Of a DNA stretch of 48,812 bases, positions 1-34,120 are shown one piece after another (position 1 is the first letter of the stretch; each line of letters opens with the position of its first letter). The stretch is from positions 1 to 48,812 of the forward strand of contig CAZGUY010000002.1 in NCBI GenBank assembly GCA_964528795.1, read 5' to 3'. Source of the DNA: an uncultured Gammaproteobacteria bacterium (GTDB lineage Bacteria; Patescibacteriota; Patescibacteriia; UBA2591; UBA6264). A model generated the notes under the pieces. It had not been told where the DNA came from, searched no databases, and saw nothing but the letters and a program-made list of their open reading frames with translations. The position numbers and the translations under genes were made by a program.

Positions 1-80
1 TAAGGTTAACAGTTTTTGGTTAATCTCCTAACAGGTTGCACCTGCGAGGAGGTTGAGAGGGAGATCGAATCTCCCTATGG
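1..80. repeat. GC-rich modular hairpin element, copy 1 (modules A-B-C, cut by window edge)
   Basis: Stems AGGTTAAC/GTTAATCT (3-26), CAGGT-TGC-ACCTG (32-44) and GGGAGAT-CGA-ATCTCCC (59-75) lie in an AT-rich spacer 3' of the minus-strand gene ending at 172. The same modules recur at 2944, 4522, 6272 and 10829. Confidence 0.7.
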
Positions 81-131
81 TTCTCTATGATCTAGATTTT
101 AACATTTATCCACAGGATATCAACATATATT

Positions 132-166
132 ATAGATGTGTCATAGATGTGTCATAGATGTGTCAT
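132..166. repeat. 11-nt tandem repeat ATAGATGTGTC x3
   Basis: Three perfect head-to-tail copies read directly in the sequence, between hairpin element copy 1 and the stop codon at 172. Confidence 0.9.
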
Positions 167-171
167 TTCGC

Positions 172-1704
172 TTAAAAAAGGCCTGCTTGACCTTTATCTT
201 TTTTTTGATTTTTTTGAATATCTTTACTAAATATTTTTTTTGTAAGAGTATATTTTACATTTGGGCCTAGTTTTTTGTTTCTACTAACAATATCCCTTTT
301 TTCTAAACCACGTATTTTTCTTCTAATAGTAGGTCTTGATTTTTCTATTTCTTTTTGAAGATCAGAAGTTGTTCCTTCTTTATTCCGCAAAAGAAATCTT
401 ATTATTTTTTGCTCGTCTTTGTCTAATTTAGTAAATATATCTTTATTAATCTGTTCTTCTAATTTCTTTTTGTCGGTTGGTTCTCTTTCATTAATTTTAT
501 TATAAAGGGTAATTGTAAAGTTGATTGCTTCTTTATCATTATTAAGCTCAGGTTCAGGTAAATTCATTTCAAGCATTTCGTCCCTTACTCTATCTAGCCC
601 CTCACTAGCTTTTTTGACATAACCTAATTTTAAAAGTGCTTCCATAATTAAGGGGTTGCGAGGGTAGGTTTTTTTGTAGATATTTTTCTCGTTGACTATA
701 TGGGGAAGAGTGCCGGGACTAGTTACTTCTAATCTATTATCGAACATTCTTATAAAAATATTTTCATTTTTTATATCATATGCTCTATGGGCTATGGCAT
801 TAACTATTAGTTCTTCTCATGCAAAGGGAGGATATTCTGGTATAGTAGTAAATTTTCCATCTTCTTGTAAAAAGCTGAATTCTTTAATTTGATTTTTTAT
901 CATATCAGAGGCATCTTGTATTTGTTTAGTTATTGACCCTTTGAAAGTTTGATCTTTTATTATATTAGATTTTTTTCCAGTTAGTACTTTCTTCCCTTTA
1001 TACCTTAAAAATCTTATATGAGCTCCTGGTATGAAATTATCTGGTCTGTCATGAAATAAAAGTAGCCCTGCTTTATTAATTTGTATCTTATTGTTTTCTT
1101 TTTTGCCAAAATTATTATGTAATATAGTTTCTTTAATTCTAGGTTTTTTATTTAATGCATCTCTGTCTATCCACCCTTGTATAAATTCTTTAATTTTTTC
1201 TTTATTTAAATCATCTAATTTAAGATTAGGAACTGGCTCTTCTTCAAATCTACTTTCTCCTTTATCTTGTTTCATTAACTTTTTTTCTTCTGAGAGTAGT
1301 TCAATTCTTTCGTCACCAACCCTTTTATAAGCAGTACCGTCAGTTTTTTCTATTACCTTATTCCGAGAAAAATGTACATAAAAAAGAAGAAATTTATATT
1401 TATTGTTATTATATTTAGTAGAAAAGGTTTTATACTCAATCTGAGCATTAGGGCAAAAGTCTTTAGGAGCTTGCTCTAATTTGTTTTTTCTTTTGGTTCC
1501 AATACTTTGAAGGCCAACAACTTTAGTATCGTTTTTGATTCCTACAACTATTAAGCCCCCTTCAATGCTACTGTTAGCAAAAGCTGAAAAATATTCGGCC
1601 AGATCTTTTGGATTTATTTTAGCGGATTTTTTCTCAAAGTTTTGATCTTCGGTTTTTTGGATAAAAGTTTTAAGGTCTGGTTTTTTATATAATTTTTTAA
1701 TCAT
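172..1704 (-). pseudogene. AlbA_2 (Schlafen-like) + HATPase_c_4-like + wHTH putative DNA-binding regulator, interrupted by one in-frame TGA (817-819)
   Basis: ORFs 817..1704 and 172..747 are in the same frame. The 69 nt between them translate to EELIVNAIAHRAYDIKNENIFIR, which matches REAILNAIAHRDY of the intact paralogue 3037..4383. The N-terminus carries the AlbA_2 motif AFANSSIEGGLIVVG. Confidence 0.75.
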
Positions 1705-1844
1705 AATTTTTTTTATATTCCATATCTGAATTATATATTAGCCAAAGTTAAATATCAAGCTAAGTTTATATAAAAGGCGAACGTTTTGAATGAAAGTGGA
1801 TAGCGGTCAAATCGTCGAATAGTAATTAGATTGGTTGAATCTTT

Positions 1845-1887
1845 AAGGTTCGCTTTTGTGAACCTTTTGTGAACCCTTAAGGTTCAC
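1845..1887. repeat. Two GC-richer hairpins related to the modular element (AAGGTTC-N8-GAACCTT; GTGAACC-N5-GGTTCAC)
   Basis: Perfect 7-bp stems sharing the AAGGTT/GAACC words of module A. They lie 3' of minus-strand gene 1996..2784. Confidence 0.6.
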
Positions 1888-1995
1888 AGGTAGTTTATTT
1901 TCGTGCTAATTTATATATGTTATATGTTTATTTACAATGATTATTGTAAAATAATACAATAAAGTTGTTTTAGTAAAAGTGGTTATCAGTTTTTA

Positions 1996-2784: not shown

Positions 2785-2845
2785 TATGTTTTGAAATAAA
2801 AGATAAATTTTAAAGTATATAGATATTTTTAGTATTGATTGGCTA

Positions 2846-2908
2846 CTAAATACATATTCTCCGATATTTTGTATTTGTCAAATAACTTTTCTACAATTAA
2901 ACAATAAA
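2846..2908 (-). promoter_or_regulatory. 63-bp repeated promoter-like module, copy 1 (TTGACA at 2876-2881 on minus strand)
   Basis: About 90% identical to 5874-5936. It contains TTGACA with an A/T-rich -10-like hexamer 16-17 nt downstream and sits upstream of minus-strand gene 1996..2784. Confidence 0.45.
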
Positions 2909-2943
2909 AAGCAAGAATTTAATAAGAACCTCATTTGTGAATC

Positions 2944-3018
2944 CTTAAGGTTAACAGTCTTCGGTTAACCTCCTAACAGGTCGCACCTGCGAGGGGGTAG
3001 GGTGGTTTGACCGCCCTA
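2944..3018. repeat. GC-rich modular hairpin element, copy 2 (modules A-B-D)
   Basis: Stems AGGTTAAC-N8-GTTAACCT (2948-2971), CAGGT-CGC-ACCTG, and TAGGGTGGT-TTG-ACCGCCCTA (2998-3018). Located immediately 3' of gene 3037..4383. Confidence 0.75.
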
Positions 3019-3036
3019 TTGTATTGTATAATATGC

Positions 3037-4383
3037 TTAATTTTTAATAATTTCCCAATGTCCCCCTTTTTTAGAGCCAACCCGCTTAATTTTTTTTGCT
3101 CTTTTTAATTTGCGGATATTTTTTTCTATACCTCTTTGGGTGATATTTATTTTTTGTGCCATTTGCTCAGTGGTTATAGATGGATTTTCTTTTATTAGGC
3201 GTATAATTTTTTCCGAACTTTTTTCCGAACTTTTTTCCGAACTTTTTTCTCTATCTTCAATGCTTTTTTTTGCTAAGTCAGGACGTTTAAAAGATATGCT
3301 AAACCAATTTTTATCAGCTTTTATATTAGGAGAGGGGAGTTTATATGAAGACATTGCATTTTTAATTCTTAATAAACCAGAGCCTATCTTTTCTACTAAA
3401 TCCATCCTTTGCATTAAGCCAAAGAGTAAGGGGTTTCTTGAAATACTTCTGTTGTATAAATCTTTTACTTCTAAGTCACCTAAAAGACCACCTGGGTTTG
3501 TAATTTCAACTCTATTTTTAAAAACATCTATTTGAATATGAGCTGTAGAAAAATAATCTCTATGAGCTATAGCGTTTAAAATAGCTTCTCTTAGGGCTTG
3601 TTCTGGCAATTCTAATTTTTCTTCTCTGGGGCCTCCTTTTATAATGTACTCTGTATTAAGCTTAGAGGACAAAAATTGCATAGCATTTTTATAATTGGAA
3701 TAAATATCTGATTTAAATTCTTTTCTGTCTAAAATTTTATACTTATCTTTTCCTTGGTACAAAACACAAGTTATAGTGGCGCTTATAAAAAACTTTGTTA
3801 TATCATTTGAAAAAAGCAAGATCCCTGCATTTTTCATTTGATTGTTTTTTATTAATCTCAAATTTTTTAAAAGTTCTATTTTATTTAAGTTGTCAGTTGC
3901 ATTTATATTATTTAAAAACTGTTTAAATTTTTCTTGAGATAGATCAGTTTTTAAATTAAACTCTTTATTTAGCATTTCATCAAATCTTATTAGGTTTTCT
4001 CTTTTAAATAGCTGTTTTACTTCATCTGTTTTTAGCTTTTGGGAATTAGCACCTTGTCTTTGATAAAAAGTTCCTCCTAAAGAATAGGGTCGTTTTTCTC
4101 CCGTGGGTATTTCTACAATAATAATATTATTATGAGAAGAAACTGAAACTTTTAAAGAAGGATCTATATTTCTGGCATAATTTTGAATTTTTGACCCTAA
4201 AGAATTAGTGTCCTTAATGCCTTTTATTTTTCCTAAGTCGTTTACACCTAAAAGTATTTTTCCACCGTTACTATTAGCAAAAGCACAGATATCTTTACCA
4301 ATAGAGTCGCTTAAGGATTTTTTAAACTCTAAATTATATCCTTCTCCTTGTTTAATTAAAGCTTTTATTTTTTTAGTGCCCAT
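3037..4383 (-). CDS. AlbA_2 (Schlafen-like) + HATPase_c_4-like + C-terminal wHTH putative DNA-binding protein/regulator
   Basis: 448 aa. Motifs AFANSNGGKILLGV, REAILNAIAHRDY and VEITNPGGL, plus the C-terminal HTH ITTEQMAQKINITQRGIEKNIRKLK. Confidence 0.8.
   Translation of the reverse strand: MGTKKIKALIKQGEGYNLEFKKSLSDSIGKDICAFANSNGGKILLGVNDLGKIKGIKDTNSLGSKIQNYARNIDPSLKVSVSSHNNIIIVEIPTGEKRPYSLGGTFYQRQGANSQKLKTDEVKQLFKRENLIRFDEMLNKEFNLKTDLSQEKFKQFLNNINATDNLNKIELLKNLRLIKNNQMKNAGILLFSNDITKFFISATITCVLYQGKDKYKILDRKEFKSDIYSNYKNAMQFLSSKLNTEYIIKGGPREEKLELPEQALREAILNAIAHRDYFSTAHIQIDVFKNRVEITNPGGLLGDLEVKDLYNRSISRNPLLFGLMQRMDLVEKIGSGLLRIKNAMSSYKLPSPNIKADKNWFSISFKRPDLAKKSIEDREKSSEKSSEKSSEKIIRLIKENPSITTEQMAQKINITQRGIEKNIRKLKRAKKIKRVGSKKGGHWEIIKN
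3207..3242. repeat. 12-nt tandem repeat (TTTTTTCCGAAC x3) inside CDS 3037..4383
   Basis: Read directly. It encodes the SEKSSEKSSEKSSEK linker between the ATPase-like and HTH parts. Confidence 0.9.
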
Positions 4384-4407
4384 ATTATATTTTTAATAAA
4401 AGGGAGG

Positions 4408-4483
4408 TTACCAATCTTTTACTTTCTTTTTAGTTTTCTTTTTTAGCTTTCTGTAAAACTTTTTAGCTGTATCTTCAAATTCA
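4408..4483 (-). pseudogene. Truncated 3'-terminal fragment (about 25 codons) of the excisionase-family HTH gene 5940..6185
   Basis: 76 nt nearly identical to 5940-6015, the stop codon plus the ...EFEDTAKKFYRKLKKKTKEKVKDW tail. Similarity ends abruptly at 4483 and there is no start codon. Confidence 0.8.
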
Positions 4484-4521
4484 TAGAGTCAACTTAAATA
4501 AATGAAGTAATTCCTCTCCTT

Positions 4522-4613
4522 GTGCACGCTTAAGGTGCACAACCACTGCCAGGTCGCACCTGGCAACCAGGTTGAACCTGGTCTGTTATTGGGGAGATCG
4601 AATCTCCCTATGG
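4522..4613. repeat. GC-rich modular hairpin element, copy 3
   Basis: Stems GTGCAC-N7-GTGCAC (4522-4540), CCAGGT-CGC-ACCTGG (4549-4563), CCAGGT-TGA-ACCTGG (4567-4581) and GGGAGAT-CGA-ATCTCCC (4592-4608) followed by TATGG. Located 3' of gene 4632..5843. Confidence 0.75.
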
Positions 4614-4631: not shown

Positions 4632-5843
4632 TTAAAGTTCCCAAATTTCTTTTATTGGATATTTGATATTTAATTTATCTTTGTTAATATCTGAGGAAAC
4701 AATTGAGAGCTGAATATTCGGGTATTCTTTTTGAAATTTTTTATAGGAAGATTTTTTAATGCTTTTAGGGTTACTTTTAACTTCAAAAGCCTTTTTATTG
4801 TTCACAACAAAATCTATTTCTTTTTGGTCGCTTGTTCGCCAAAATTTTATTTTATCTTTATGATATTTTTCTAAAAGCTGTCTAAAGCTAGCATTTTCTA
4901 ATATTTTTCCTTTATCTTGTCTTTTTGTTAAGGGTTTAAAGTTAGAAACAAAAAAGTTTCTTAGCCCCAGGTCTGAAAAGTATACTTTGGGCATTTTAGT
5001 TAATTCTTTTCTTATATTACTGTGAAATGGTTTTACAATATTAATGTGAAATGATTTTTGCATTATATACAGATAATTATCAATTAATGTTTTTGAAACA
5101 TCTAAAGTATTTGATAGTTCAGAAGCATTAACTAAGTTGCCCGTCTGGGCGGCTAAAATTTTAAATAGTTTGTAAAAAACTTCATCTTGTTTAATATTAG
5201 ATTCATAAACATCTTTTTTAATATAGGAATATGCAATATCTCTTAAAATGTCTTTTTTTTGGTTAATAGGGGATAGTACTACACGAGGGTACCCTCCATA
5301 AATGAGATATTCTTGAAAATAAAAGGTGATTTTTTCTTTTTCAGATAAACTTAATTTATTGAAGTTTTTTTGAGCTAATTTATTTTTGTCTTTAAATCTT
5401 AGAAATTCTTTAAAAGATAGTGTTTTGACATTAAATATTTTTTTTCTGCCAACTAAAGAATCCTTAAATTTTTTATCCATATAAAAAGCAGAAGATCCAG
5501 ATGCTATGATTTTTATTTTTTTCTTATATTCGTCCCAAAAGTATTTTAAAAAATTTGTTGGATTATCTAAATATTGAATTTCATCAATAATAAGAAAGTT
5601 CTTTTCATTTAGATCAATAGTAAAAATTTTAAATAAATTTTTTGGAGACTTATTTAATAACTCAAGATAATCAGGGTCTTCAAGATTTAAAAAATAATTT
5701 GTTTTATCTTTTTTTTCTAAAAAGGACTGGAGCTGTTTGAGAATAGTTGTTTTACCTGCTTGTCTAGATCCTACTAAAAGCAAAATATCGTCATTATTAA
5801 AATATTTTTTAATTTTAATTGTTAAATCTCTTATTATACTCAT
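4632..5843 (-). CDS. AAA-family ATPase (AAA_14 + DUF4143-type architecture)
   Basis: 403 aa. Walker A GSRQAGKTT and Walker B-like LIIDEIQ. The C-terminal region is typical of DUF4143-containing ATP-binding proteins. Confidence 0.8.
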   Translation of the reverse strand: MSIIRDLTIKIKKYFNNDDILLLVGSRQAGKTTILKQLQSFLEKKDKTNYFLNLEDPDYLELLNKSPKNLFKIFTIDLNEKNFLIIDEIQYLDNPTNFLKYFWDEYKKKIKIIASGSSAFYMDKKFKDSLVGRKKIFNVKTLSFKEFLRFKDKNKLAQKNFNKLSLSEKEKITFYFQEYLIYGGYPRVVLSPINQKKDILRDIAYSYIKKDVYESNIKQDEVFYKLFKILAAQTGNLVNASELSNTLDVSKTLIDNYLYIMQKSFHINIVKPFHSNIRKELTKMPKVYFSDLGLRNFFVSNFKPLTKRQDKGKILENASFRQLLEKYHKDKIKFWRTSDQKEIDFVVNNKKAFEVKSNPKSIKKSSYKKFQKEYPNIQLSIVSSDINKDKLNIKYPIKEIWEL

Positions 5844-5873
5844 AAATTTGATTTTTTAAATATTAATTACTTT

Positions 5874-5936
5874 CTAAATACATTTTATCCGATATTTTGT
5901 ATTTGTCAAATAATTTTTCCACAATTAAACAATAAG
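5874..5936 (-). promoter_or_regulatory. 63-bp repeated promoter-like module, copy 2 (TTGACA-N16-TAAAAT on minus strand)
   Basis: About 90% identical to 2846-2908. TTGACA at 5904-5909 (reverse complement) and TAAAAT at 5882-5887 (reverse complement), upstream of gene 4632..5843. Confidence 0.5.
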
Positions 5937-5939
5937 TAG

Positions 5940-6185
5940 TTACCAGTCTTTTACTTTTTCTTTAGTTTTCTTTTTTAGCTTTCTGTAAAACTTTTTAGCT
6001 GTATCTTCAAATTCAGGTGAAACAGCTCTTAAAATTTCTATTCCTAGTATTCTATATCTACCTCCAACTTTGTTGGCTTTTATAATACCTTTTTTAAGCC
6101 AACGCTTAATAGTACTTTTAGAAACTTTTAAGTAATTTCTTGCTTCTTTTGTAGTATATACCTTACCTGGTTCAATTTTATTCAT
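5940..6185 (-). CDS. Excisionase-family / MerR-like helix-turn-helix DNA-binding protein
   Basis: 81 aa. YTTKEARNYLKVSKSTIKRWLKKGIIKANKVGGRYRI fits the HTH_17/excisionase pattern, followed by a basic tail. Confidence 0.7.
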   Translation of the reverse strand: MNKIEPGKVYTTKEARNYLKVSKSTIKRWLKKGIIKANKVGGRYRILGIEILRAVSPEFEDTAKKFYRKLKKKTKEKVKDW

Positions 6186-6271
6186 AAAAAATAATATAAA
6201 TTGATTATATTATTATTTTAAACGAAGTGTCATTAGGTGTCAATAAGTATTACTGTGTGGATAACTCAGTA

Positions 6272-6309
6272 GGGAGATCGAATCTCCGTATGGGGGTTAG
6301 ACCGCCCTA
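6272..6309. repeat. GC-rich modular hairpin element, copy 4 (modules C-D)
   Basis: GGGAGAT-CGA-ATCTCCG (6272-6288) followed by TATGGGGGT-TAG-ACCGCCCTA. Located 3' of gene 6319..7203. Confidence 0.7.
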
Positions 6310-6318: not shown

Positions 6319-7203
6319 TTATAATATATCAAGTATTTTCTGAGCAGGGTCAAAATTATTTGGTTGTCTACATTGAGCCATTTTTTCTATAATCTTTTTT
6401 ACATCTGAAGGGATTTCTATATCTTTATTTTTCTTAAGAAGTTTTAATAAAAGCCAAGCTGCTTTATTCCTGCAAATAGTAGAATGTTTTTTTATAAGAG
6501 CATAAATGGATTTGGGTTTTAATTCTGATTTATTTGTAGGTATATTTGATAAAGCAATAGCAGCATTGTTTGAAACTCCATAGGATGGATCTTTTTCTAG
6601 AGTTCTTGATAATATTTTACTAGTTTCATGATATTTTTCTTTTGAGGCCCAGTTTAAAAGATGGGCTGCTTGTATTCTATTTTTTTCATTTTTATCATTT
6701 AAGACAATCTTTCTTAATGTATCATAGTATTTTTTCACATGCTTGGTAAGTTTTCTTTCATAGTGTTTTAAGTTCTTGTCTTTTTTTGATGCTACAGACT
6801 CTCTATCTTTTTTATTAAATTCTTTTTGCATTGCTTTTTGGTAAGCTTTAAATGATTGTTTTAATTCCTTGGGTAATTTAAAAGTTTTTGTAAATTTTTT
6901 GAATTTTTTCTTTCTTTTTTTAGGGACGAGATTTATATCACAATAAATTTGTTGTTTAGCAGTTACTTTCCCCCTTTCATGAACAGTGCGATATATAATT
7001 GAATCAAAATTAATTTCTTTTTTAGGAAATTTCTCTTTTAGTATTTTTTTAGCCCCTTTTTTGAATTTGTCTTCTTTTTTATAAAATTTGTCTAAAGTTA
7101 TTTTTTGCCCTTCTTTAAGGCCAATTTTTTTGAATATTTTATCTTCATCTATATTATTTGCGCCCCAAATATTGCCTTTATGAATAGTATATTTTTTTGT
7201 CAT
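6319..7203 (-). CDS. Hypothetical protein with C-terminal HEAT/armadillo-like repeats (paralogue of 8662..9528)
   Basis: 294 aa. The N-terminal 25 aa are identical to 8662..9528. The C-terminal helical repeats (RIQAAHLLNW..., NNAAIALSNI..., CRNKAAWLLLKLL) resemble HEAT repeats. Confidence 0.65.
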   Translation of the reverse strand: MTKKYTIHKGNIWGANNIDEDKIFKKIGLKEGQKITLDKFYKKEDKFKKGAKKILKEKFPKKEINFDSIIYRTVHERGKVTAKQQIYCDINLVPKKRKKKFKKFTKTFKLPKELKQSFKAYQKAMQKEFNKKDRESVASKKDKNLKHYERKLTKHVKKYYDTLRKIVLNDKNEKNRIQAAHLLNWASKEKYHETSKILSRTLEKDPSYGVSNNAAIALSNIPTNKSELKPKSIYALIKKHSTICRNKAAWLLLKLLKKNKDIEIPSDVKKIIEKMAQCRQPNNFDPAQKILDIL

Positions 7204-7279
7204 AAGTTAAAAAGTTAGATTGATATATAATTTAGATCCTTTAAAAGGTTTTTTATGTGGAAATAGTGCAAATTAAAGG

Positions 7280-7308: not shown

Positions 7309-7396
7309 ATAGATAGTTAGTTCTTTAAATTGTTAGCAAGTAAGCCGGTATCTGCTAACTTTATTTAAACCGGATTTAAAAAAGGAGGTGGTGAAA

Positions 7397-7588
7397 ATGA
7401 GTAAAGCACCATTTATGGCTCGATTTGGAGAACACTATGATGGAGCATACCCTAGTAAAGGAAGTGGGGAGTATGATGGTGAAACGCAAATATACTGTCA
7501 AGACGAAAAAGAGCCCACTGTTTGCCCCACGCCTAGTGGTCCAAATGCCGACAAAGGTCATATAGATGACCAGAAAAGATGCGACTAA
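7397..7588 (+). CDS. Candidate graspetide (microviridin-like) RiPP precursor peptide, 63 aa
   Basis: GGAGG at 7384-7388, 8 nt before ATG 7397. The GTG at 7388 given in the ORF track lies inside the RBS. The leader APFMARF resembles the microviridin PFFARFL motif. The rest is rich in Ser/Thr/Lys and Asp/Glu and includes AYPSK..EYDGE. The gene lies directly upstream of an ATP-grasp gene. Confidence 0.7.
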   Translation: MSKAPFMARFGEHYDGAYPSKGSGEYDGETQIYCQDEKEPTVCPTPSGPNADKGHIDDQKRCD

Positions 7589-7657: not shown

Positions 7658-8632
7658 ATGAATGAAAAAATCATTTTAGTTGTTACTAGTAAATATGCTT
7701 CAGATGTTAATTCTGTAATAAAAGAATTGTATAAGATGGATGAAAAAGTAATAAGGCTTAATACTGAAGATTTTCCTAGTCAGATTGATTATAATTATAA
7801 ATCTAATGAAGAGAAAATGATTTTTAGCCTTCCCCATAATCGGATAGTATTACTTAAAGATATTAAATCTATTTTATATCGTAAAGAACAAGAACCTAAA
7901 ATTGATTCTGCAGTAAAAGAAGAATCATTAAGAGATTTTGCAAAGAGAGAAAGTAGGGTAGTGCTTAGAAGCTTTTATCAAAGTTTTAATGGGCTTTGGA
8001 TTAATCATCCTCTTAGAGTTAGAGCTGCTTCTCAGAAAATTTATCAACTACAAAAAGCTAAGGAGGTTGGTTTTAATATTCCTTCTACATTAGTAACAAA
8101 TCAACCAAAGGATTTGAAGGAATTTTATGATAAGCACAAGGAAACCGGTATAATAGTAAAGCCACTTAGTTTCCCTATAGCTGAAGGTCAGCAAGAATAT
8201 TATGCTTTCTCAACTGCACGAGTAACCGAGAAAGATATTGGCCATATGGAAGAAGTCCAATATTCTCCTACTCTTTTTCAGGAAGAGGTCCCTAAAAAGT
8301 ATGAATTAAGAATTACGGTTGTTGGTAATAAGGTCTTTCCCTGTAAAATTGATTCTCAAATATCTAGTAAAACAGAATTAGATTGGCGCTTTTTTGAGCC
8401 TGGTAAACCTGTTCCACATGAAGCAACTAGTATTCCATTAGAGATTGAAAAAAAGTGTGTAAAAATAGTAAAAAGTTTAGGATTGAAGTTTGGTGCTATT
8501 GATATGATATATACTCCTGATGAGAAATATGTTTTTTTGGAAATTAATCCTAGCGGAATGTGGGGATGGATAGAAGAACTTACTGGTTTGCCGATTTCAA
8601 AAGCTATAGCTCAGTTATTAGCCAACCACTAA
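7658..8632 (+). CDS. ATP-grasp ligase, MdnB/MdnC (graspetide macrocyclase)-like
   Basis: 324 aa, preceded by GAGGTG. The size and the motifs ELRITVVGNKVF, GAIDMIYTPDEKYVFLEINPSGMWGW and PISKAIAQLL match my recollection of microviridin-type ATP-grasp ligases of the RimK-like fold. Confidence 0.75.
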   Translation: MNEKIILVVTSKYASDVNSVIKELYKMDEKVIRLNTEDFPSQIDYNYKSNEEKMIFSLPHNRIVLLKDIKSILYRKEQEPKIDSAVKEESLRDFAKRESRVVLRSFYQSFNGLWINHPLRVRAASQKIYQLQKAKEVGFNIPSTLVTNQPKDLKEFYDKHKETGIIVKPLSFPIAEGQQEYYAFSTARVTEKDIGHMEEVQYSPTLFQEEVPKKYELRITVVGNKVFPCKIDSQISSKTELDWRFFEPGKPVPHEATSIPLEIEKKCVKIVKSLGLKFGAIDMIYTPDEKYVFLEINPSGMWGWIEELTGLPISKAIAQLLANH

Positions 8633-8663
8633 AATCCCTTGATTATAAATAATCAGGGGATTT
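8632..8663. terminator. Bidirectional hairpin between convergent genes
   Basis: AAATCCCTTGATTA / TAATCAGGGGATTT forms a stem of about 14 bp with one G-T pair and overlaps both stop codons. Confidence 0.6.
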
Positions 8664-9528
8664 ATTTTATTGTTTTAAGTAATTTATTAGCAGCTTCTCT
8701 GTGATTTGGCTGTCTACATTTAGACATTTTTTTTATAATCTTTTTTACATCTGAAGGGATTTCTATATTTTTATTTTGTTTAAAAAGTTTTAATAAGAGC
8801 CAAACTGCTTTATTTCTGCAAATACTGGAATTTATTTGAAATAAACTAAAAATGGGTTTAGGTTCTAGTTTTACCCCTTGCTGGTTTAATTGTAATAGAG
8901 AAAAGGCTGCATTGCTTAATGTCCAATGATCAAGCTCTGTATTTAATGATTTGAATAAAAGTTTTTTTGTTTGAGATAATTTTTCTTTTGGAACCCATTG
9001 TAAAAGTAGGGCTGCCTTTGCTCGTTTGTTGTTGTCTTTGTCATTTAAAAGAATTTGTTTTATTGTAGAAAAGTTTTTCTTAATGTGGTTTTCAAACCTT
9101 TTTTGAATTTTTTCTAAAGTTTTAGAAGAAATTTTTTTATTATTTTGTGTTTTCTTTCTTAATATTTGATAATAGTCCTGTAGGGTTATTTTTATTTCAT
9201 TGGGAAAAACAATATCTTTTTTAAATTCTTTTCTATCTTTAGGTTTTGGGTTTATATTTATATCGCAATAAATTTCATTTTGAATGATCTTATCATCTAT
9301 TTTTTGTTTGCCATGATAAAAAAGTGGGCTAAAGATAAATTTCTTTTTAGGTAGTTTATTTTGTAAAATTTCTCTAATTTTATCTTGCCATTTGTATCTT
9401 TTTTTACTAAATTCATCCAAGGTCATTTTCTGTCCCTCTTTCAAGCCAATTTGTTTAAATATTTTATCTTCGTCTATATTATTTGCCCCCCAAATGTTAC
9501 CTTTATGAATAGTATATTTTTTTGTCAT
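8662..9528 (-). CDS. Hypothetical protein with C-terminal HEAT-like repeats (paralogue of 6319..7203)
   Basis: 288 aa. It shares the first 25 aa, the 5' flank and the C-terminal block ICRNKA(A/V)WLLLKL...IEIPSDVKKII with its paralogue. The central part is diverged. Confidence 0.65.
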   Translation of the reverse strand: MTKKYTIHKGNIWGANNIDEDKIFKQIGLKEGQKMTLDEFSKKRYKWQDKIREILQNKLPKKKFIFSPLFYHGKQKIDDKIIQNEIYCDININPKPKDRKEFKKDIVFPNEIKITLQDYYQILRKKTQNNKKISSKTLEKIQKRFENHIKKNFSTIKQILLNDKDNNKRAKAALLLQWVPKEKLSQTKKLLFKSLNTELDHWTLSNAAFSLLQLNQQGVKLEPKPIFSLFQINSSICRNKAVWLLLKLFKQNKNIEIPSDVKKIIKKMSKCRQPNHREAANKLLKTIK

Positions 9529-9575
9529 AAGTTAAAAAGTTAGATTGATATATAATTTTCTACCATACTAGGTCG

Positions 9576-9596
9576 TAGGGTGGTTAGACTGTTCTA
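9576..9596. repeat. Module D hairpin, isolated copy
   Basis: TAGGGTGGT-TAG-ACTGTTCTA forms a 9-bp stem only if four G-T pairs on the plus strand are allowed. Located 3' of gene 9604..10641. Confidence 0.55.
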
Positions 9597-10828: not shown

Positions 10829-10950
10829 TAGGGCGATTGGATTGTCCTAACGTGTGAACTCTTAAGGTTAACTGTTTTTAATATCCTAACAGGTCGCAAT
10901 CTGTGAGGGGATGGGGGGGTGGACTCCGGGCGAGGGTTAGATCGTTCTAA
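10829..10950. repeat. GC-rich modular hairpin element, copy 6 (composite D-A-B-...-D)
   Basis: TAGGGCGAT-TGG-ATTGTCCTA (10829-10849), CTTAAGGTTAAC..ATCCTAAC, CAGGT-CGCA-ATCTG, a G-rich tract, and GAGGGTTAGATCGTTCTAAT. It is the most GC-rich spacer in the left part of the window. Confidence 0.7.
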
Positions 10951-10965
10951 TATGCCCTAATATAC

Positions 10966-10994
10966 TTGACAAAATTCAATTATCGTATTATATT
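10966..10994 (+). promoter_or_regulatory. Promoter TTGACA-N17-TATATT
   Basis: Consensus -35 at 10966-10971 and -10 at 10989-10994, 46 nt before ATG 11040. Confidence 0.6.
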
Positions 10995-11351: not shown

Positions 11352-11487
11352 ATAAATTTAATTTTTAATATTGATTAATTGTTAAGTGTGTTTTATCCAA
11401 CATTTTGTATTTATTAAACAATCCTACAACTGGATAAACTTATTCTCAATAGAGCACTTAAATCACCCTAATATATCTTAGTTGTGT

Positions 11488-14173: not shown

Positions 14174-14261
14174 TTATGTAGAGAAGTTTAGCTTATTTCT
14201 TACATTATATCTTACTATGTCAGGTTAAAATGTCAATAAACAAAAACCCACAAGGTTTAGC

Positions 14262-15374
14262 TTACAGGTTTAATTTTTTTATAGTTTTTAAATATTTGTT
14301 AACTATTTTTTTAGAATCAAAATCCTTTGCTCTTTTTTTGATTGCTTCTTCTTTTATGCTTGGTTTATTTAATGTTTTTATAATTGCCTGAGCTAGTTTC
14401 TTATAATTTTTAACAGGTACTAATTCTCCATATTTACCTGCCTTTAATGCTTCATATGGGCCACTTGGGCAATTAGTACTAACTATTTGTGTGCCACAAG
14501 CCATTGCTTCTATTAAAACCATTGGAAACCCTTCCCAATTTGACGGAAGGGCAAATAAATCGGATTGAGACATGTATTTGTAAGGGTTTTTTACAGCCCC
14601 AATTAAGTTGACTTTATTTTGAAGGTTTAATTCTTTTATTAATTGTTTTAAATTTTTTCTTTCCTCACCTTTGCCTAATATAATTAATTTTGTTTCTGGT
14701 ATATTATTGTTAACTCTTTTAAAAGCTTTAATTAAATTAGAAAAGTTTTTACGTTTTATTAATCTTCCGCATCCTAATATAATTTTATTGTTTTTATTAT
14801 TAAAAAAGGGATGCTTAATTTTTTCTTTAGATTTTTCTTGTATTTTTTTAAAGTCTATTGGGTTGTAAATAACTTTAATTTTATCTTTTTTTATATTAAA
14901 ATTTGTAATCAAGTCTTTTTTAATTGCTTTTGAAACTGCAATAATTTTTTTAGCCCTATTATAGAATAGTTTAATCATTATTTTTTGAATTATTCCGTAA
15001 AGGTTGTTTGGTATGTCAATAGATTGAAAGTTATGAATCGTAAGAATGGCGTCTTGATTGATTAAAGCATTAAAAATATTAGAATTTCTTACAAAGCTAA
15101 TAATAACCTTTTCTTTTTCTTTGTTTAATGTTTTTTTTATTTTATATATTCTTTTAAAAAAGTAATATATTTTAAGAAAAAAATTATTTGTTTTTGGTGT
15201 GTTTAAAATAACTTTTTCTCCATTGTACGGATAATATATATCAGGTTCAAATAATATTATCGTTTGTTTAATATTTTTTGGTAGATTTAAGGATAAGGTA
15301 GATAAGACTCTTTCTGCTCCCCCCATTTGTAAACTACTTGATAAAAAATATATTTTTTTGGCATGTTTTGTCAT
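14262..15374 (-). CDS. Glycosyltransferase family 4 (GT-B)
   Basis: 370 aa with the EGFPMVLIEAMACG (E-x7-E) motif. Confidence 0.85.
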   Translation of the reverse strand: MTKHAKKIYFLSSSLQMGGAERVLSTLSLNLPKNIKQTIILFEPDIYYPYNGEKVILNTPKTNNFFLKIYYFFKRIYKIKKTLNKEKEKVIISFVRNSNIFNALINQDAILTIHNFQSIDIPNNLYGIIQKIMIKLFYNRAKKIIAVSKAIKKDLITNFNIKKDKIKVIYNPIDFKKIQEKSKEKIKHPFFNNKNNKIILGCGRLIKRKNFSNLIKAFKRVNNNIPETKLIILGKGEERKNLKQLIKELNLQNKVNLIGAVKNPYKYMSQSDLFALPSNWEGFPMVLIEAMACGTQIVSTNCPSGPYEALKAGKYGELVPVKNYKKLAQAIIKTLNKPSIKEEAIKKRAKDFDSKKIVNKYLKTIKKLNL

Positions 15375-18766: not shown

Positions 18767-19090
18767 ATGGATTATTTTAATATTATAATTTTAATCATTT
18801 TTACCTTTATTGGATATTTTGTTCAAAGCTTATATTCGGGCAAATATCCAGGTGATAAAATAGAAAAGTCATTAAGATTTTTAATTAATGACTATTATAT
18901 TCATATTCATCATTGGTTATGGTCTTTGGTTTTAATTATTCTATTTATTATTCTTGGTTTTTATAATCCTGTAGTTTTTGGAATTTTAATAGGCTTTACA
19001 ATTCAAGGTTTAACCTACAAAGATCGGTTTGTATTTTTTTATCATAAAGATAATTGTTCTGATATTTATAATAAATGGAAATCAGATTAA
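18767..19090 (+). CDS. Small integral membrane protein, hypothetical
   Basis: 107 aa with three hydrophobic helices. No recognisable motif. Confidence 0.55.
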   Translation: MDYFNIIILIIFTFIGYFVQSLYSGKYPGDKIEKSLRFLINDYYIHIHHWLWSLVLIILFIILGFYNPVVFGILIGFTIQGLTYKDRFVFFYHKDNCSDIYNKWKSD

Positions 19091-19095
19091 AACAA

Positions 19096-19122
19096 AAACC
19101 CGCAAGTTTAACTTACGGGTTT
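19096..19122 (-). terminator. Repeated terminator hairpin, copy a (AAACCCGCAAGT-TTA-ACTTACGGGTTT)
   Basis: 12-bp stem. The single mismatch is a G-U pair on the minus-strand transcript, which is followed by UUUUUGUUUU. Identical copies lie at 21171 and 23550. Confidence 0.75.
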
Positions 19123-19128
19123 AATTTT

Positions 19129-19602
19129 TTATGGTTTTTTAAGGCGAGAGGGCAGGTAAAGAGTGTAGGTTTTTTGGGTTGTATCCGAACCCGACTTTAT
19201 ATCGCTTGGGTAAAATAATTTCCAGGTTGAACTTATTTTTTTTACCTTTTTAATGTGGTAATGTATAACAACTTCTGGAGTTTTTCCGTATTTTGTTTCT
19301 GTTGAGTATTTATCCAAAAGGACCCTAGCTGTATCTTTGCCATCTTTATACTGAATAAAGGTCTGAATCTTGTCTCTATATTCGATTTCCATCTTATTGA
19401 TCAGTTTCTTGGGTTTAGAATGATCTATGTAGTGATCAGTGTTTTCCATGATAGCTATATCTTTTATAAATTCAAGAGCAAAGACAGACACCATTAATCC
19501 TACAACAATACAAATTACTAGATCACCTTTAGTTGGTATACTTTTTTGTATAGCATACATTAATAAAAATGATATAACCACACAACCAATTACAGTAACC
19601 AT
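19129..19602 (-). CDS. Small membrane-anchored hypothetical protein (157 aa), paralogue of 23594..24082
   Basis: AGGAGG RBS. The first 10 codons (MVTVIGCVVI) are identical at nucleotide level to 23594..24082. Two N-terminal TM helices and the shared block IAI(M/A)ENT(D/S)HY..HSKPKKLI. Confidence 0.7.
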   Translation of the reverse strand: MVTVIGCVVISFLLMYAIQKSIPTKGDLVICIVVGLMVSVFALEFIKDIAIMENTDHYIDHSKPKKLINKMEIEYRDKIQTFIQYKDGKDTARVLLDKYSTETKYGKTPEVVIHYHIKKVKKISSTWKLFYPSDIKSGSDTTQKTYTLYLPSRLKKP

Positions 19603-20881: not shown

Positions 20882-21004
20882 TATTTATTGACCTTTTTTG
20901 AATTTTTGTTATTTTAAAAATAATAATTAATATAATTCTAAATTTTATGCGTTTTAGATTTTTGATTCCAAGAACAGCCAATTGTTCTGATGGCTGTTGA
21001 ATAT

Positions 21005-21035
21005 GCCGGGGACCCTTAGTTCCCGGCTTTTATTT
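21005..21035 (+). terminator. Intrinsic terminator, probably for 19853..20881
   Basis: GCCGGGGAC-N5-GTTCCCGGC followed by TTTTATTT. It is preceded by a second hairpin AACAGCCA-N10-TGGCTGTT (20973-20998). Confidence 0.65.
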
Positions 21036-21088
21036 AATCTTGGTTAAATGTCTGAAGTAATTTTATTTTTTAAACAAAAACCTAAGGA

Positions 21089-21125
21089 GGAGATCAAATC
21101 TCCCCTTTACCAGGTGTCACCTGGT
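21089..21125. repeat. GC-rich hairpin element, copy 7 (C-like + B-like)
   Basis: GGAGAT-CAA-ATCTCC (21089-21103) and ACCAGGTG-T-CACCTGGT (21109-21125). Confidence 0.6.
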
Positions 21126-21170
21126 AAATATCCAACAAAGAGCTTAATATGGCTTGTTAATCAAAAACAA

Positions 21171-21197
21171 AAACCCGCAAGTTTAACTTACGGGTTT
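21171..21197 (-). terminator. Repeated terminator hairpin, copy b
   Basis: Identical to 19096-19122. Located 3' of the 33-codon ORF. Confidence 0.75.
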
Positions 21198-21238
21198 AAT
21201 TTTTAAGGAAAAAAGCTGTAGCATCATTCATGGGATTA

Positions 21239-21340
21239 TCACAAGCATCCTAGCATTCCTAGGATTGTCCAACCCCCCATAAAGGCTACAAAACCAAAAA
21301 GAACAGCTATTGCTATTTTGTAAAGAGTGTTCGTGTCCAT
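21239..21340 (-). CDS. 33-aa hydrophobic peptide (MDTNTLYKIAIAVLFGFVAFMGGWTILGMLGCL)
   Basis: Not in the ORF track because it is too short. It sits exactly where the repeated promoter+leader+AGGAGG module places a start codon (ATG at 21340-21338) and is followed by the repeated terminator. It has a single TM-like segment. Confidence 0.6.
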   Translation of the reverse strand: MDTNTLYKIAIAVLFGFVAFMGGWTILGMLGCL

Positions 21341-21392
21341 AATTTCCTCCTTTTATAAATTAAGGTTTAATTGTAAATATCTAACTATCCTT

Positions 21393-21421
21393 AATATAGC
21401 AAAAATTAACGTTTTTGTCAA
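21393..21421 (-). promoter_or_regulatory. Repeated promoter, copy b (TTGACA-N17-TATATT)
   Basis: Reverse complement of 21416-21421 is TTGACA and of 21393-21398 is TATATT. Confidence 0.65.
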
Positions 21422-21432
21422 TATTAAAAACA

Positions 21433-21465
21433 AAACCCGTAAGTTTAACTTATACTTACGAATTT
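21433..21465 (-). repeat. Decayed copy of the repeated terminator hairpin
   Basis: AAACCCGTAAGT..ACTTACGAATTT. The left arm is intact and the right arm is mutated. It lies immediately upstream of promoter copy b. Confidence 0.5.
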
Positions 21466-21470
21466 TAAAT

Positions 21471-21535
21471 ATATTGTAATGGCATTGCAATATATTTCCC
21501 AAAACATTGTAATCACATTACAATATTATTATAAT
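21471..21535 (+). promoter_or_regulatory. Two palindromes (ATATTGTAAT-GGC-ATTGCAATAT; ATTGTAAT-CAC-ATTACAAT) overlapping a TTGTAA-N17-TATAAT promoter
   Basis: Read directly. The perfect 8-3-8 palindrome at 21506-21524 spans the -35 (21507-21512). The -10 TATAAT is at 21530-21535. Confidence 0.5.
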
Positions 21536-21541
21536 ACTAAT

Positions 21542-21942: not shown

Positions 21943-21948
21943 TTTTAT

Positions 21949-23505: not shown

Positions 23506-23539
23506 CTTAGGAGCAAGGCTCCTAAGTAAGGCTCCTAAG
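23506..23539. repeat. GC-richer hairpin CTTAGGAGC-AAG-GCTCCTAAG with duplicated right arm
   Basis: 9-bp perfect stem with a 3-nt loop. The unit TAAGGCTCCTAAG is repeated, giving alternative pairings. Confidence 0.6.
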
Positions 23540-23549
23540 TTGAAAACAA

Positions 23550-23576
23550 AAACCCGCAAGTTTAACTTACGGGTTT
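23550..23576 (-). terminator. Repeated terminator hairpin, copy c
   Basis: Identical to 19096-19122. Located 3' of gene 23594..24082 and also usable by the plus-strand Fic gene. Confidence 0.75.
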
Positions 23577-34017: not shown

Positions 34018-34120
34018 TACCTGTGAGGTAGTGGTTAACCTCTAGGGTTCACTATATAAATAATAATTCGAATCTCCACTTGAGTGTGGAGGTCTTTCCT
34101 CCGAAGGAGGTGAGTCCTCC
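34018..34120. repeat. GC-rich hairpin cluster, copy 8
   Basis: TACCT-GTG-AGGTA, GGTTAACC, CTCCAC-N6-GTGGAG (34074-34091), CCTCC-GAA-GGAGG (34098-34110) and GGAGG-N5-CCTCC (34106-34120). Confidence 0.6.

What the first reader, a model, noticed from the sequence alone, without database searches (positions are those of the whole stretch)
2944..3018. Family of modular GC-rich short-hairpin elements placed immediately 3' of accessory genes
Seen: in a genome of roughly 30% GC, short GC-rich spacers recur at 1-80, 1845-1887, 2944-3018, 4522-4613, 6272-6309, 9576-9596, 10829-10950, 21089-21125, 23506-23539 and 34018-34120. They are built from a small vocabulary of perfect 5-9 bp stems, mostly with 3-nt loops, combined in different orders. 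The vocabulary is: module A AGGTTAAC-N8-GTTAACCT; module B CAGGT-(C/T)GC-ACCTG within CTCCT..AGGAG; module C GGGAGAT-CGA-ATCTCCC+TATGG (three near-identical copies); module D TAGGGTGGT-TTG-ACCGCCCTA (four variants); and additionally CCAGGT-TGA-ACCTGG and CTTAGGAGC-AAG-GCTCCTAAG. Six of them sit within 5-30 nt of the stop codon of a minus-strand accessory gene. Inference: this is a REP/MITE-like palindromic element family or a 3'-end RNA stabiliser family. The combinatorial module order is unusual and I cannot assign it to a named family. No RAYT/IS200-type transposase is present in the window.
Basis: partly seen in the sequence, partly recalled or inferred. Interest (0 to 1): 0.65.

Follow-up and report, generated by a model that had tools for sequence, protein, structure and literature searches.

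The report
GC-rich hairpin repeat family in Patescibacteria
A tiny AT-rich bacterial genome carries short GC-rich, hairpin-forming repeats between its accessory genes; they are real and also occur in a sister species, but they resemble the REP/BIME and BOX repeats long known in other bacteria.

Summary
The repeats are real. The window is 28% GC Patescibacteria DNA. It holds 11 perfect GC-rich hairpins against about 0.9 expected, and modules B, C, D and 'hp1' recur with none expected by chance.

The 'combinatorial vocabulary' is mostly one colinear unit of about 90-100 nt: hp1/A, then B, then C or D. There are three full copies (1-80 plus left flank, 2933-3020, 10850-10951) and one divergent copy (4519-4613). 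The rest are truncated, duplicated or recombined pieces. 21088-21125 is an inverted member, 34019-34120 is marginal and 23506-23539 is unrelated.

ARAGORN and Rfam find nothing, and no recombinase or transposase gene is present.

A sister species (about 91% nt identity, GCA_035269445.1) carries the same modules. It has them at orthologous sites with different internal modules, and in at least two other contexts.

Copies are 89% identical where the neighbouring paralogous genes are only 29% identical in protein. Other copies are visibly decaying.

C and D differ by compensatory changes, so the hairpin is the conserved unit.

Best reading: a lineage-specific REP/BIME- or BOX-like interspersed palindromic repeat family lying at the ends of accessory-gene cassettes, probably acting as transcript-end or insulator hairpins. 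How it spreads is unresolved. It is a new member of a known kind, of modest interest.

The parts
1..80 (+). e1: right-hand 80 nt of a full copy (A, B, C). The window starts inside it. The whole copy, with hp1 and a further GC-rich hairpin to its left, is seen in Logan contig L011 1007-1140.
   Evidence: nhmmer E=7.5e-23; 89% identical to e2944 over 65 nt
1835..1890 (+). e1845: partial copy made of two hp1-type hairpins (AAGGTTCGC-TTTT-GTGAACCTT and GTGAACC-CTTAA-GGTTCAC)
   Evidence: E=0.0034
2933..3020 (+). e2944 (the finding): full copy with hp1 2937-2955, A 2947-2971 (shares GGTTAAC with hp1), B 2972-2994 and D 2998-3018. The stop of the SLFN/AlbA_2 gene is at 3037.
   Evidence: E=2.8e-26. 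Synteny with the sister species ends at 2997, between D and B.
4485..4513 (+). 29-nt remnant of the last 9 codons of a plus-strand SNase gene, ending 5 nt before e4522
   Evidence: 96.6% identical to L019 6619-6647 and L020 1924-1952
4519..4613 (+). e4522: divergent full copy with an hp1 variant (GTGCAC-GCTTAAG-GTGCAC), B, a second B (CCAGGT-TGA-ACCTGG) and C. The ATPase stop is at 4632.
   Evidence: -48.5 kcal/mol, z=-6.3; E=0.0017
6270..6309 (+). e6272: partial copy with C (6270-6290) overlapping a degenerate D (6289-6309). The stop of the HEAT gene is at 6319. The ortholog in the sister species is L019 4773-4812.
9576..9596 (+). e9576: lone, decayed D hairpin with four G.T pairs, 7 nt from the Fic stop (9604)
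10829..10951 (+). e10829: D (10829-10849) followed by a decayed full copy (hp1 10854-10872, degenerate A and B, extra G-rich insert, D' 10930-10950). It lies between a minus-strand promoter-like site (10793-10765) and a plus-strand one (10966-10994).
   Evidence: (E=3.3e-21)
21088..21125 (-). Inverted partial member: C-like AGGAGAT-CAA-ATCTCCC followed by B-like CCAGGT-GTC-ACCTGG
34019..34120 (-). Marginal member: an inverted hp1 variant (34034-34052) equal to the hp1' variant of the sister species apart from one extra A, followed by unrelated GC-rich hairpins. It sits 26 nt after the AbiEii stop.
   Evidence: (E=1.6, not significant)
23506..23539 (.). Not a family member. A 9-bp stem with 3-nt loop (CTTAGGAGC-AAG-GCTCCTAAG) plus a 13-nt direct repeat, next to a canonical terminator.
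   Evidence: (no hit)

Best explanation
What it is: a lineage-specific family of short interspersed palindromic repeats, of the same kind as enterobacterial REP/BIME clusters or pneumococcal BOX elements.

The basic unit is one GC-rich stem-loop of 5-9 bp with a loop of mostly 3 nt. Three or four such hairpins form a composite of about 90-100 nt: hp1/A, then B, then C or D. Copies arise by copy-and-paste or recombination independently of the neighbouring genes. They are exchanged module by module, and then decay by point mutation in the AT-rich genome.

The copies accumulate at the boundaries of accessory and defence-type gene cassettes. These include SLFN/AlbA_2, DUF4143 ATPase, Fic, HEAT, AbiE and CysQ. 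In the ancestral arrangement the element lies between a cargo gene and a convergent SNase gene.

Shown:
- It is a repeat family.
- It is colinear.
- The hairpin is conserved through compensatory change.
- It occurs in a sister species, with module turnover there.
- It belongs to no known RNA family.
- No recombinase lies nearby.

Inferred: the hairpins act in RNA as transcript-end structures, that is, blocks to exonucleases, read-through or antisense transcription between cassettes. The strand is probably the window's plus strand, which is sense to the ancestral SNase gene and antisense to the present minus-strand cargo genes.

Not resolved: how new copies are made.
For: Repeat family beyond chance.

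Colinear unit. Three full copies give nhmmer E-values of 1e-21 to 1e-28.

Copies are more alike than their neighbours. e1 and e2944 are 89% identical over 65 nt. The SLFN paralogs just upstream of them share only 29% protein identity.

Hairpin conservation. In 18 C/D hairpins, 84.6% of cells are paired against 77% in shuffles (0 of 500 shuffles reach this). Columns 6:16 (A-U 6, C-G 5, U-G 4) and 8:14 (A-U 7, G-C 6) covary.

Sister species, about 91% nt identity in shared genes (GCA_035269445.1, plus ENA and JGI contigs):
- A perfect D (TAGGGCGGTCTAACCGCCCTA) occurs at two loci in L019 (4773-4793 and 6538-6558). Its first 18 nt recur at a third locus in L014 (71-88).
- hp1 at the lepA-upstream locus is identical 20/20 to e10829.
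- One 148-nt stretch occurs at 99% identity with two different right flanks (L015 and L017).

Module turnover. At the orthologous site downstream of SLFN the window has D, B, A, hp1. The sister species has D, C'', C', hp1'.

Decay. The window's orthologous D at 6289 has two mismatches where the sister's D is perfect. e9576 and e10829 are degenerate.

Location. All 9 member sites flank accessory genes. None lies in the polysaccharide, transporter, glycolysis or Sec gene blocks. e34018 lies at the 3' end of the AbiEi/AbiEii pair, which sits between Wzy_C and PGK here; those two genes are adjacent in L001.

Plus-strand sense. A 29-nt SNase 3' remnant precedes e4522. Seven of eight window copies fold better on the plus strand. 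Wobble pairs in the window copies are 12 G.T against 1 A.C. The simple scan flags D and hp1 as terminator-like on the plus strand only.

Hairpins of the same style lie between the ATPase and a convergent SNase gene in a more distant relative: A-like, B-like and GTAGGG...CCCTAC. They show compensatory changes between strains.

Not a known RNA and not a known mobile element.
Against: - The genome-wide copy number is unknown. Apart from two sites, all window copies lie within 13 kb of one accessory island, so the family may be a local by-product of rearrangement rather than a dispersed repeat.
- No transposase or RAYT gene, and no terminal repeats or target-site duplications, were seen.
- The strand signal is not consistent. 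In the sister species the wobble count is 4 G.T against 7 A.C in the same orientation, and its largest cluster folds better on the other strand.
- The genome also has perfectly canonical terminators, one repeat family with 5 copies. The GC-rich hairpins are therefore not its standard terminator.
- No U-tract follows them on the sense strand of the adjacent minus-strand genes.
- e10829 lies between divergent promoter-like sites, where a transcript-end role makes no sense.
- No expression data exist.
Confidence: 0.5

Rival explanations
1. Passive copies. The unit is simply the 3' flank and terminator region of a convergent SNase-cargo gene pair. It has been duplicated and scrambled with the cassettes by homologous and illegitimate recombination in a hypervariable island. 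The elements have no mobility of their own.
For: - An SNase 3' remnant lies next to e4522, and the sister species has SNase convergent on SLFN with the element in between.
- Cassette indels are bracketed by repeats of the HTH_17 gene or its 3' end, not by the hairpins. These repeats are 77 nt in the window, 327 nt in L019 against L024, and about 21-30 nt in L003 against L004.
- The promoter module 2822-2907 / 5850-5935 is repeated too.
Against: - Elements are 89% identical next to genes that share only 29% protein identity.
- hp1, B and D modules also occur upstream of lepA and of an RHH antitoxin gene in the sister species. The 8 kb around the lepA locus (L014) holds no SNase or HTH_17 gene among its ORFs; L017 is too short to say.
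- e34018 and e21089 lie outside the island.
Confidence: 0.2
2. True non-autonomous mobile elements (REPIN- or PATE-like). Their hairpins are recognised and moved as single-stranded DNA by a Y1/HUH transposase (RAYT or IS200/IS605 TnpA) encoded elsewhere in the genome.
For: - GTAG directly precedes and overlaps the palindrome (GTAGGG...) in four window copies and two copies in the sister species.
- An inverted D doublet, GGCGGTCTAACCGCC-gggt-GGCGGTTAGACCGCC, occurs in the sister species and resembles a REPIN.
- Identical copies occur at several loci.
- Assembly contigs start or end inside elements: the window start, L012, L014 and L017.
Against: - No Y1 transposase gene in the 48.8 kb window or in the ORFs checked on the related contigs (Pfam scans of the window and precomputed Pfam tables for the loci).
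- The GTAG is missing from the best-preserved C copies.
- No REP, REPIN or RAYT report that mentions Patescibacteria was found in the paper library.
Confidence: 0.15
3. DNA-level protein-binding sites. The palindromes (GGTTAACC twice, GTGCAC twice, GTGAAC..GTTAAC, TAGGG..CCCTA) are operators for dimeric HTH proteins of the island, such as HTH_17 or the wHTH domain of the SLFN/AlbA_2 proteins.
For: - hp1 keeps a conserved G/T asymmetry (GTGAAC against GTTAAC) in five copies and is identical across species, which suggests sequence-specific rather than purely structural constraint.
- e10829 lies between divergent promoters.
- Covariation of the two arms is also what an inverted-repeat operator would show.
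Against: - Stems are contiguous, with loops of only 3 nt.
- There are many different stem sequences.
- Mismatches are dominated by G.T wobble in the window.
- Most copies lie at gene ends rather than at promoters.
Confidence: 0.08
4. Small structured RNA genes on the plus strand, about 110-125 nt long, ending at the D hairpin with its U-rich tail and acting antisense to, or as regulators of, the cassettes.
For: - Fold and wobble bias towards the plus strand in the window.
- D followed by a UAUUGUAUU-type tail is flagged as terminator-like on the plus strand.
Against: - By eye, no conserved promoter or shared upstream sequence among the copies.
- Copies are truncated at arbitrary module boundaries.
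- The strand bias is reversed in the sister species.
- No Rfam hit.
Confidence: 0.05
5. Site-specific recombination sites (integron attC-like) that define gene cassettes.
For: - The cargo genes are co-oriented, each followed by a structured element.
- GTTAGAC / GTCTAAC in D fits the GTTRRRY / RYYYAAC consensus (read directly from the sequence).
- Cassette content varies between strains.
Against: - No integrase.
- The element is several independent perfect hairpins, not one long imperfect hairpin with core sites at its base. The core-like heptamer spans the loop.
- The cassettes carry their own promoter-like modules.
- Indel boundaries lie in HTH_17 repeats, not in the hairpins.
Confidence: 0.02

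Closest known systems
REP sequences and BIME clusters of Enterobacteria (and REPIN-RAYT systems of Pseudomonas)
   Same: - Short GC-rich imperfect palindromes that are extragenic and often just 3' of genes.
- They occur singly or as mosaic clusters of different hairpin types.
- A GTAG lies at the 5' edge of several copies.
- An inverted doublet occurs in the sister species.
- Copies decay after they arise.
- The proposed role as an mRNA 3'-end hairpin is the role classically attributed to REP elements.
   Different: - No sequence similarity.
- Stems are shorter (5-9 bp) and mostly perfect, with 3-nt loops.
- The GTAG is part of the stem and is absent from the C copies.
- Copy number is unknown.
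- No RAYT was seen.
- The host is a Patescibacteria genome, where the paper search found no report of such repeats.
BOX elements of Streptococcus pneumoniae (boxA-boxB(n)-boxC)
   Same: - A composite of a few modules in fixed order, with modules missing or duplicated.
- It folds into stable stem-loops.
- It is intergenic and sits in an AT-rich genome.
- No transposase of its own.
   Different: - The modules here are single small hairpins, not 45-59-nt boxes.
- Sequence relation was not tested, because no BOX model is available in the tools.
- The association with accessory-gene cassettes is stronger here.
Rho-independent (intrinsic) terminators
   Same: - A GC-rich stem-loop at gene ends.
- The very stem TAGGGAGAT-NNN-ATCTCCCTA serves as a lone canonical terminator, with A- and T-tracts, in unrelated AT-rich phage contigs.
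- D followed by a U-rich tail is terminator-like on the plus strand.
   Different: - No U-tract on the sense strand of the adjacent genes.
- Three or four hairpins in a row.
- The genome has a separate canonical terminator family.
Integron attC sites
   Same: Structured elements 3' of co-oriented accessory gene cassettes.
   Different: - No integrase.
- A different architecture of several perfect hairpins.
- Cassettes with their own promoters.
- Indel boundaries lie elsewhere.

Membership tests
REP / BIME | Short (about 20-40 nt) GC-rich imperfect palindromes located outside genes | tested here: met
   Nine of 11 GC-rich perfect hairpins are intergenic, and all family members are intergenic.
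REP / BIME | Clusters that combine different palindrome types with linkers (mosaic structure) | tested here: met
   The unit is hp1/A, B, C or D, with module loss, duplication and exchange.
REP / BIME | Conserved GTAG tetranucleotide at the 5' side of the palindrome | tested here: inconclusive
   GTAGGG is present at 2996, 6268, 9574 and 10827, and in both D copies of L019. It is absent from C at 57 and 4590 and from the L014 copies.
REP / BIME | Tens to hundreds of copies dispersed over the chromosome | not testable with these tools
   Only about 51 kb of this genome and about 25 kb of the sister species could be read.
REPIN-RAYT | A single-copy Y1 transposase (RAYT) gene in the genome, flanked by the repeats | not testable with these tools
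   None in the window ORFs scanned, nor in the ORFs checked on the fetched loci. The rest of the genome is out of reach.
REPIN-RAYT | Two REPs in inverted orientation separated by a short spacer as the mobile unit | tested here: inconclusive
   One D doublet in the sister species (L014 74-105). None in the window.
MITE | Terminal inverted repeats and target-site duplications flanking each copy | tested here: not met
   The flanks of e1, e2944, e10829 and the L015/L017 copy show neither, by visual comparison only.
Integron attC | One long imperfect hairpin with RYYYAAC / GTTRRRY core sites at its base, next to an intI gene | tested here: not met
   The element is several independent perfect hairpins, the heptamer match lies in the D loop, and no integrase is present.
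Intrinsic terminator | GC-rich hairpin directly followed by a U-tract on the sense strand of the upstream gene | tested here: not met
   The simple scan lists no minus-strand site at the elements. Five plus-strand sites overlap them, with interrupted T tails.
tRNA / rRNA fragment or any Rfam family | A match to a tRNA model or to an Rfam covariance model | tested here: not met
   ARAGORN finds 0 genes. Rfam at gathering threshold gives 0 hits in the window, and only true tRNAs in the five related loci scanned (L003, L011, L014, L017, L019). Permissive scans give only chance-level hits of 6-25 bits against cut-offs of 36-112.

The most novel reading that the evidence does not exclude
The hairpin clusters may be an active part of a cassette-shuffling system peculiar to these Patescibacteria. 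In this reading, accessory and defence genes travel as [HTH_17 gene or its 3' end, promoter module, cargo, hairpin cluster] units. The hairpin clusters serve as strand-specific insulators that let cassettes be stacked head to tail, and as preferred breakpoints for module-by-module exchange, without any linked integrase or transposase.
Probability: 0.12. Interest if true: 0.6.

Novelty: new member of a known kind. Interest (0 to 1): 0.3.

Why it matters
Patescibacteria (CPR) have very small genomes. The paper library searched here held no report of interspersed repeats in them. A REP/BIME-like family would show that even these reduced genomes maintain short repeats, or are parasitised by them.

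The family also marks the boundaries of a fast-evolving island of defence-type genes. That makes it a handle for studying how such islands are rearranged.

In practice these repeats break assemblies of such MAGs. They could also serve as strain-typing markers.

The finding does not open a new class of element.

Tried and rejected
- tRNA or T-arm fragments. C resembles a T-arm (GGGAG-ATCGAAT-CTCCC), but ARAGORN and Rfam are negative and no cloverleaf can be drawn.
- T-box motif. AGGGTGG..ACCGC in D resembles it, but there is no Rfam hit and no downstream gene on that strand.
- Integron attC: rejected on architecture, absence of an integrase and the position of indel boundaries.
- Exact module C pattern in GTDB genomes and in JGI metagenomes: 0 hits each.
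- Contigs of ATPase homologs at 76-77% identity (L001-L008) lack the family downstream of the gene. They only have hairpins of similar style.
- Viral contigs. The hp1 hit L018 is a chance match in GC-rich DNA and the B pattern gives 0 hits. The D and C stem patterns hit lone terminators in unrelated phage and giant-virus contigs; the D hit (L033) and the 24-29% GC phage contigs carry A/T tracts. None of these contigs has a tblastn match to the window's HEAT proteins.
- Phage and plasmid collections: no blastn match to e2944.
- CysQ/IMPase homologs reach only 63% identity, so there is no orthologous context for the left half of e2944.
- The look-up of P0132 returned unrelated contigs, a clustering artefact.
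- Strand assignment from wobble pairs is clear in the window but contradicted in the sister species. A leading-strand C-to-T bias cannot be inferred, because GC skew here follows gene orientation.
- DnaA-box or oriC idea. Two exact TTATCCACA sites lie next to elements, but one-mismatch boxes are not enriched (17 found, 13.4 expected).

Full report
**Context.** The window is 28.3% GC. Protein homologs identify it as Patescibacteria (CPR, Parcubacteria-like) DNA. It comes from a 52,859-nt contig of an NCBI MAG.
- The left 24 kb carries accessory genes, mostly on the minus strand. They include two SLFN/AlbA_2-HATPase_c_4-wHTH genes (one split), CysQ/IMPase, an AAA_14/DUF4143 ATPase, an 81-aa HTH_17 gene, two HEAT paralogs, an MvdD-like ATP-grasp gene, two Fic genes and a polysaccharide/sulfotransferase operon.
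- The right half carries transporter, PGK, enolase, iPGM, SecA and SecDF genes.
- No integrase or transposase is present.

- All quoted strings are at the stated coordinates.
- Module C occurs three times with at most 1 mismatch and B twice, against 0 in shuffles. The D pattern gives 9 matches against 0.04 expected. A fourth motif, GTGAAYYCTTAAGGTTMAC ('hp1'), gives 9 against 0.08.
- Perfect hairpins of at least 7 bp and at least 50% GC number 11, against 0.9 expected. Nine of them lie in the 12.5% of the window that is intergenic.

**Anatomy.** MAFFT, all-against-all blastn and an nhmmer profile show that the 'vocabulary' is one colinear unit of about 90-100 nt. Its order is:
- hp1 (TTTGTGAAYYCTTAAGGTTMAC);
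- A (GGTTAAC-N8-GTTAACC, which re-uses the GGTTAAC of hp1, so the two pairings exclude each other);
- B (CCTAACAGGTYGCACCTGCGAGG);

Copies in the window:
- Full copies are e1, e2944 and e10829. e1 covers window 1-80 and continues to the left; it is seen whole in Logan contig L011 from the same organism.
- e4522 is a divergent full copy with B duplicated.
- e1845 (hp1 twice), e6272 (C plus D) and e9576 (D) are fragments.
- 21088-21125 is an inverted C-plus-B fragment.
- 34019-34120 is marginal.
- 23506-23539 is unrelated in sequence.

**Known families.** ARAGORN finds no tRNA. Rfam finds nothing at gathering thresholds. Permissive scans of 11.5 kb and of the two best copies alone give only chance-level hits. 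Phage and plasmid collections give no match.

**Relatives.**
- Exact module C is absent from the GTDB species genomes and from JGI metagenomes.
- The degenerate hp1 pattern hits one Patescibacteria MAG (SMAG_U9134, GCA_035269445.1) and three JGI contigs of the same species.
- Protein-guided retrieval then gave many contigs of this species (L019-L028). They are about 91% identical in DNA to the window over shared genes.

This sister species carries the family at several places:
1. Upstream of lepA there are two B-like hairpins, an inverted D doublet, an hp1 identical to that of e10829, and a C/D-like hairpin.
2. The same 148 nt occur at 99% identity in front of an RHH antitoxin gene. Identity ends sharply after ...AAGTTATCCACAG.
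3. An ortholog of e6272 is present.
4. Downstream of the SLFN ortholog, the element lies between SLFN and a convergent SNase gene.

At this last site the D hairpin next to SLFN is shared. The rest differs: D, C'', C', hp1' in the sister, against D, B, A, hp1 in the window. Synteny ends at window 2997, between two hairpins. The single hairpin is therefore the unit of exchange.

**Independent spread and decay.**
- e1 and e2944 are 89% identical over 65 nt, yet the SLFN paralogs upstream of them share only 29% protein identity. The similarity is therefore not a by-product of a recent gene duplication.
- In the sister species D is a perfect palindrome at two loci, and its first 18 nt recur at a third.
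- In the window the orthologous D at 6289 has two mismatches, and e9576 and e10829 are degenerate.
- This birth-and-decay pattern fits a repeat family rather than a strongly selected RNA gene.

**Structure.**
- In an ungapped alignment of 18 C/D hairpins, 84.6% of cells pair, against 77% after shuffling (0 of 500 shuffles reach this).
- Two stem positions covary between the C and D types: A-U, C-G and U-G at 6:16, and A-U and G-C at 8:14.
- The copies are related, so these represent few independent events. They still show that the palindrome is what is kept.
- This alone cannot separate an RNA or ssDNA hairpin from an inverted-repeat protein site.

**Which strand?**
- In the window, seven of eight copies fold better on the plus strand.
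- The window's C/D hairpins show 12 G.T against 1 A.C.
- The simple scan flags D and hp1 as terminator-like only on the plus strand, with tails such as UAUUGUAUU.
- A 29-nt remnant of the 3' end of a plus-strand SNase gene lies directly left of e4522. In the sister species an intact SNase gene reads into the element.
- In a more distant relative the ATPase gene is likewise followed by a convergent SNase gene. A-like, B-like and GTAGGG...CCCTAC hairpins lie in between, with compensatory differences between strains.
- The ancestral setting is therefore the space between a cargo gene and a convergent SNase gene, and the plus strand is SNase-sense.

The strand signal is not robust, however. In the sister species the count is 4 G.T against 7 A.C in the same orientation, and its largest cluster folds better on the other strand.

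**Position.**
- Four elements lie 7-18 nt from the stop of a minus-strand gene. Two listed sites lie 26-30 nt after plus-strand stops.
- e1 and e1845 are about 100 nt from a stop.
- e10829 lies between two divergent promoter-like sites.
- All nine member sites flank accessory genes, and none lies inside the core-gene blocks.
- e34018 lies at the 3' end of the AbiEi/AbiEii pair, which sits between Wzy_C and PGK here; those two genes are adjacent in L001.
- The genome also has a separate family of canonical terminators with five copies.

**Cassette dynamics.**
- The island is a patchwork of repeated pieces: the HTH_17 gene, a promoter module (2822-2907 and 5850-5935, which is 97.6% identical in the sister) and the hairpin elements.
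- Indels between strains and species are bracketed by direct repeats of HTH_17 or its 3' end, not by the hairpins. These repeats are 77 nt in the window, 327 nt in L019 against L024, and about 21-30 nt in L003 against L004.
- This argues against the hairpins being site-specific recombination sites.

**Conclusion.**
- The best-supported reading is a lineage-specific REP/BIME- or BOX-like interspersed palindromic repeat family at the ends of accessory-gene cassettes.
- Its most likely role is as transcript-end or insulator hairpins.
- The mechanism of spread is unresolved. It could be passive recombination or an unlinked Y1 transposase.
- This is a new member of a known kind.
The 'unusual combinatorial order', the count of six sites near stops and the simple 3'-stabiliser reading for the minus-strand genes are not.

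Noticed in passing
window 14233-14287, 19084-19138, 21159-21213, 21421-21475, 23538-23592: A separate five-copy repeat family that is a canonical, probably bidirectional, intrinsic terminator: AAAAACCCGCAAGTTTAACTTACGGGTTTAATTTTTT.
   Followed up: partly
window 2822-2907, 5850-5935 (86%), 11358-11443 (60%); L019 3623-3706 (97.6%): A repeated promoter-like module containing TTGACA, found upstream of the CysQ and ATPase genes. In the sister species it precedes a nucleotidyltransferase/HEPN pair instead.
   Followed up: partly
window 4407-4483 and 5939-6015; L019 vs L024; L003 vs L004: A 77-nt direct repeat of the HTH_17 gene's 3' end brackets [promoter module, ATPase, e4522, SNase remnant]. Cassette indels in relatives are also bracketed by HTH_17 repeats that end 1-4 nt after its stop codon. 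This suggests cargo is gained and lost by recombination at HTH_17.
   Followed up: partly
window 106-114 (+), 6256-6264 (-); L014 ~205-213; L017; L019 ~4819-4827: Exact TTATCCACA (the DnaA-box consensus) recurs 7-26 nt from C-type hairpins and 7-13 nt upstream of -35-like hexamers. It marks the sharp right end of the element in the sister species. One-mismatch boxes are not enriched in the window.
   Followed up: partly
window 132-166; L011 3239-3268; window 3207-3249: Perfect 11-nt tandem repeats (3.2 and 2.7 copies), with different units, lie directly after the stop codons of two SLFN/AlbA_2 paralogs. A 12-nt repeat of 3.6 copies lies in frame inside a third.
   Followed up: no
window 7388-7588 and 7658-8632: An MvdD-like ATP-grasp gene is preceded by a GC-rich 66-aa ORF with no Pfam hit. 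This may be a graspetide (microviridin-like) precursor-ligase pair.
   Followed up: no
window 172-747 and 817-1704: An SLFN/AlbA_2-HATPase_c_4-HTH gene is split into two ORFs, probably a pseudogene or frameshift.
   Followed up: no
window 6319-7233 vs 8665-9558: Two HEAT-repeat paralogs with their upstream regions are 80-88% identical in DNA. Only one is followed by a family element; the other ends at an ordinary AT-rich hairpin at 8632-8663.
   Followed up: partly
window 20882-21948: About 1 kb holds no ORF of 60 aa or more. It is packed with repeats (families D3 and D9), two terminator copies, hairpins, and a small unlisted minus-strand ORF. The 5' part of the repeated segment resembles the starts of genes 19129-19602 and 23594-24082.
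   Followed up: no
L014 ~245-350 (also L015, L016): A promoter-like site is followed by a roughly 100-nt stretch, GGTGCTGG...CCAGCACC, and a T-run. It lies between the element and lepA and looks like a small structured RNA. It has no Rfam hit.
   Followed up: no
window 32376-33991: An AbiEi/AbiEii toxin-antitoxin pair lies between Wzy_C and PGK here; those two genes are adjacent in the relative L001.
   Followed up: partly
window 36546-38135 and 38139-39713: Two tandem genes for cofactor-independent phosphoglycerate mutase (iPGM).
   Followed up: no
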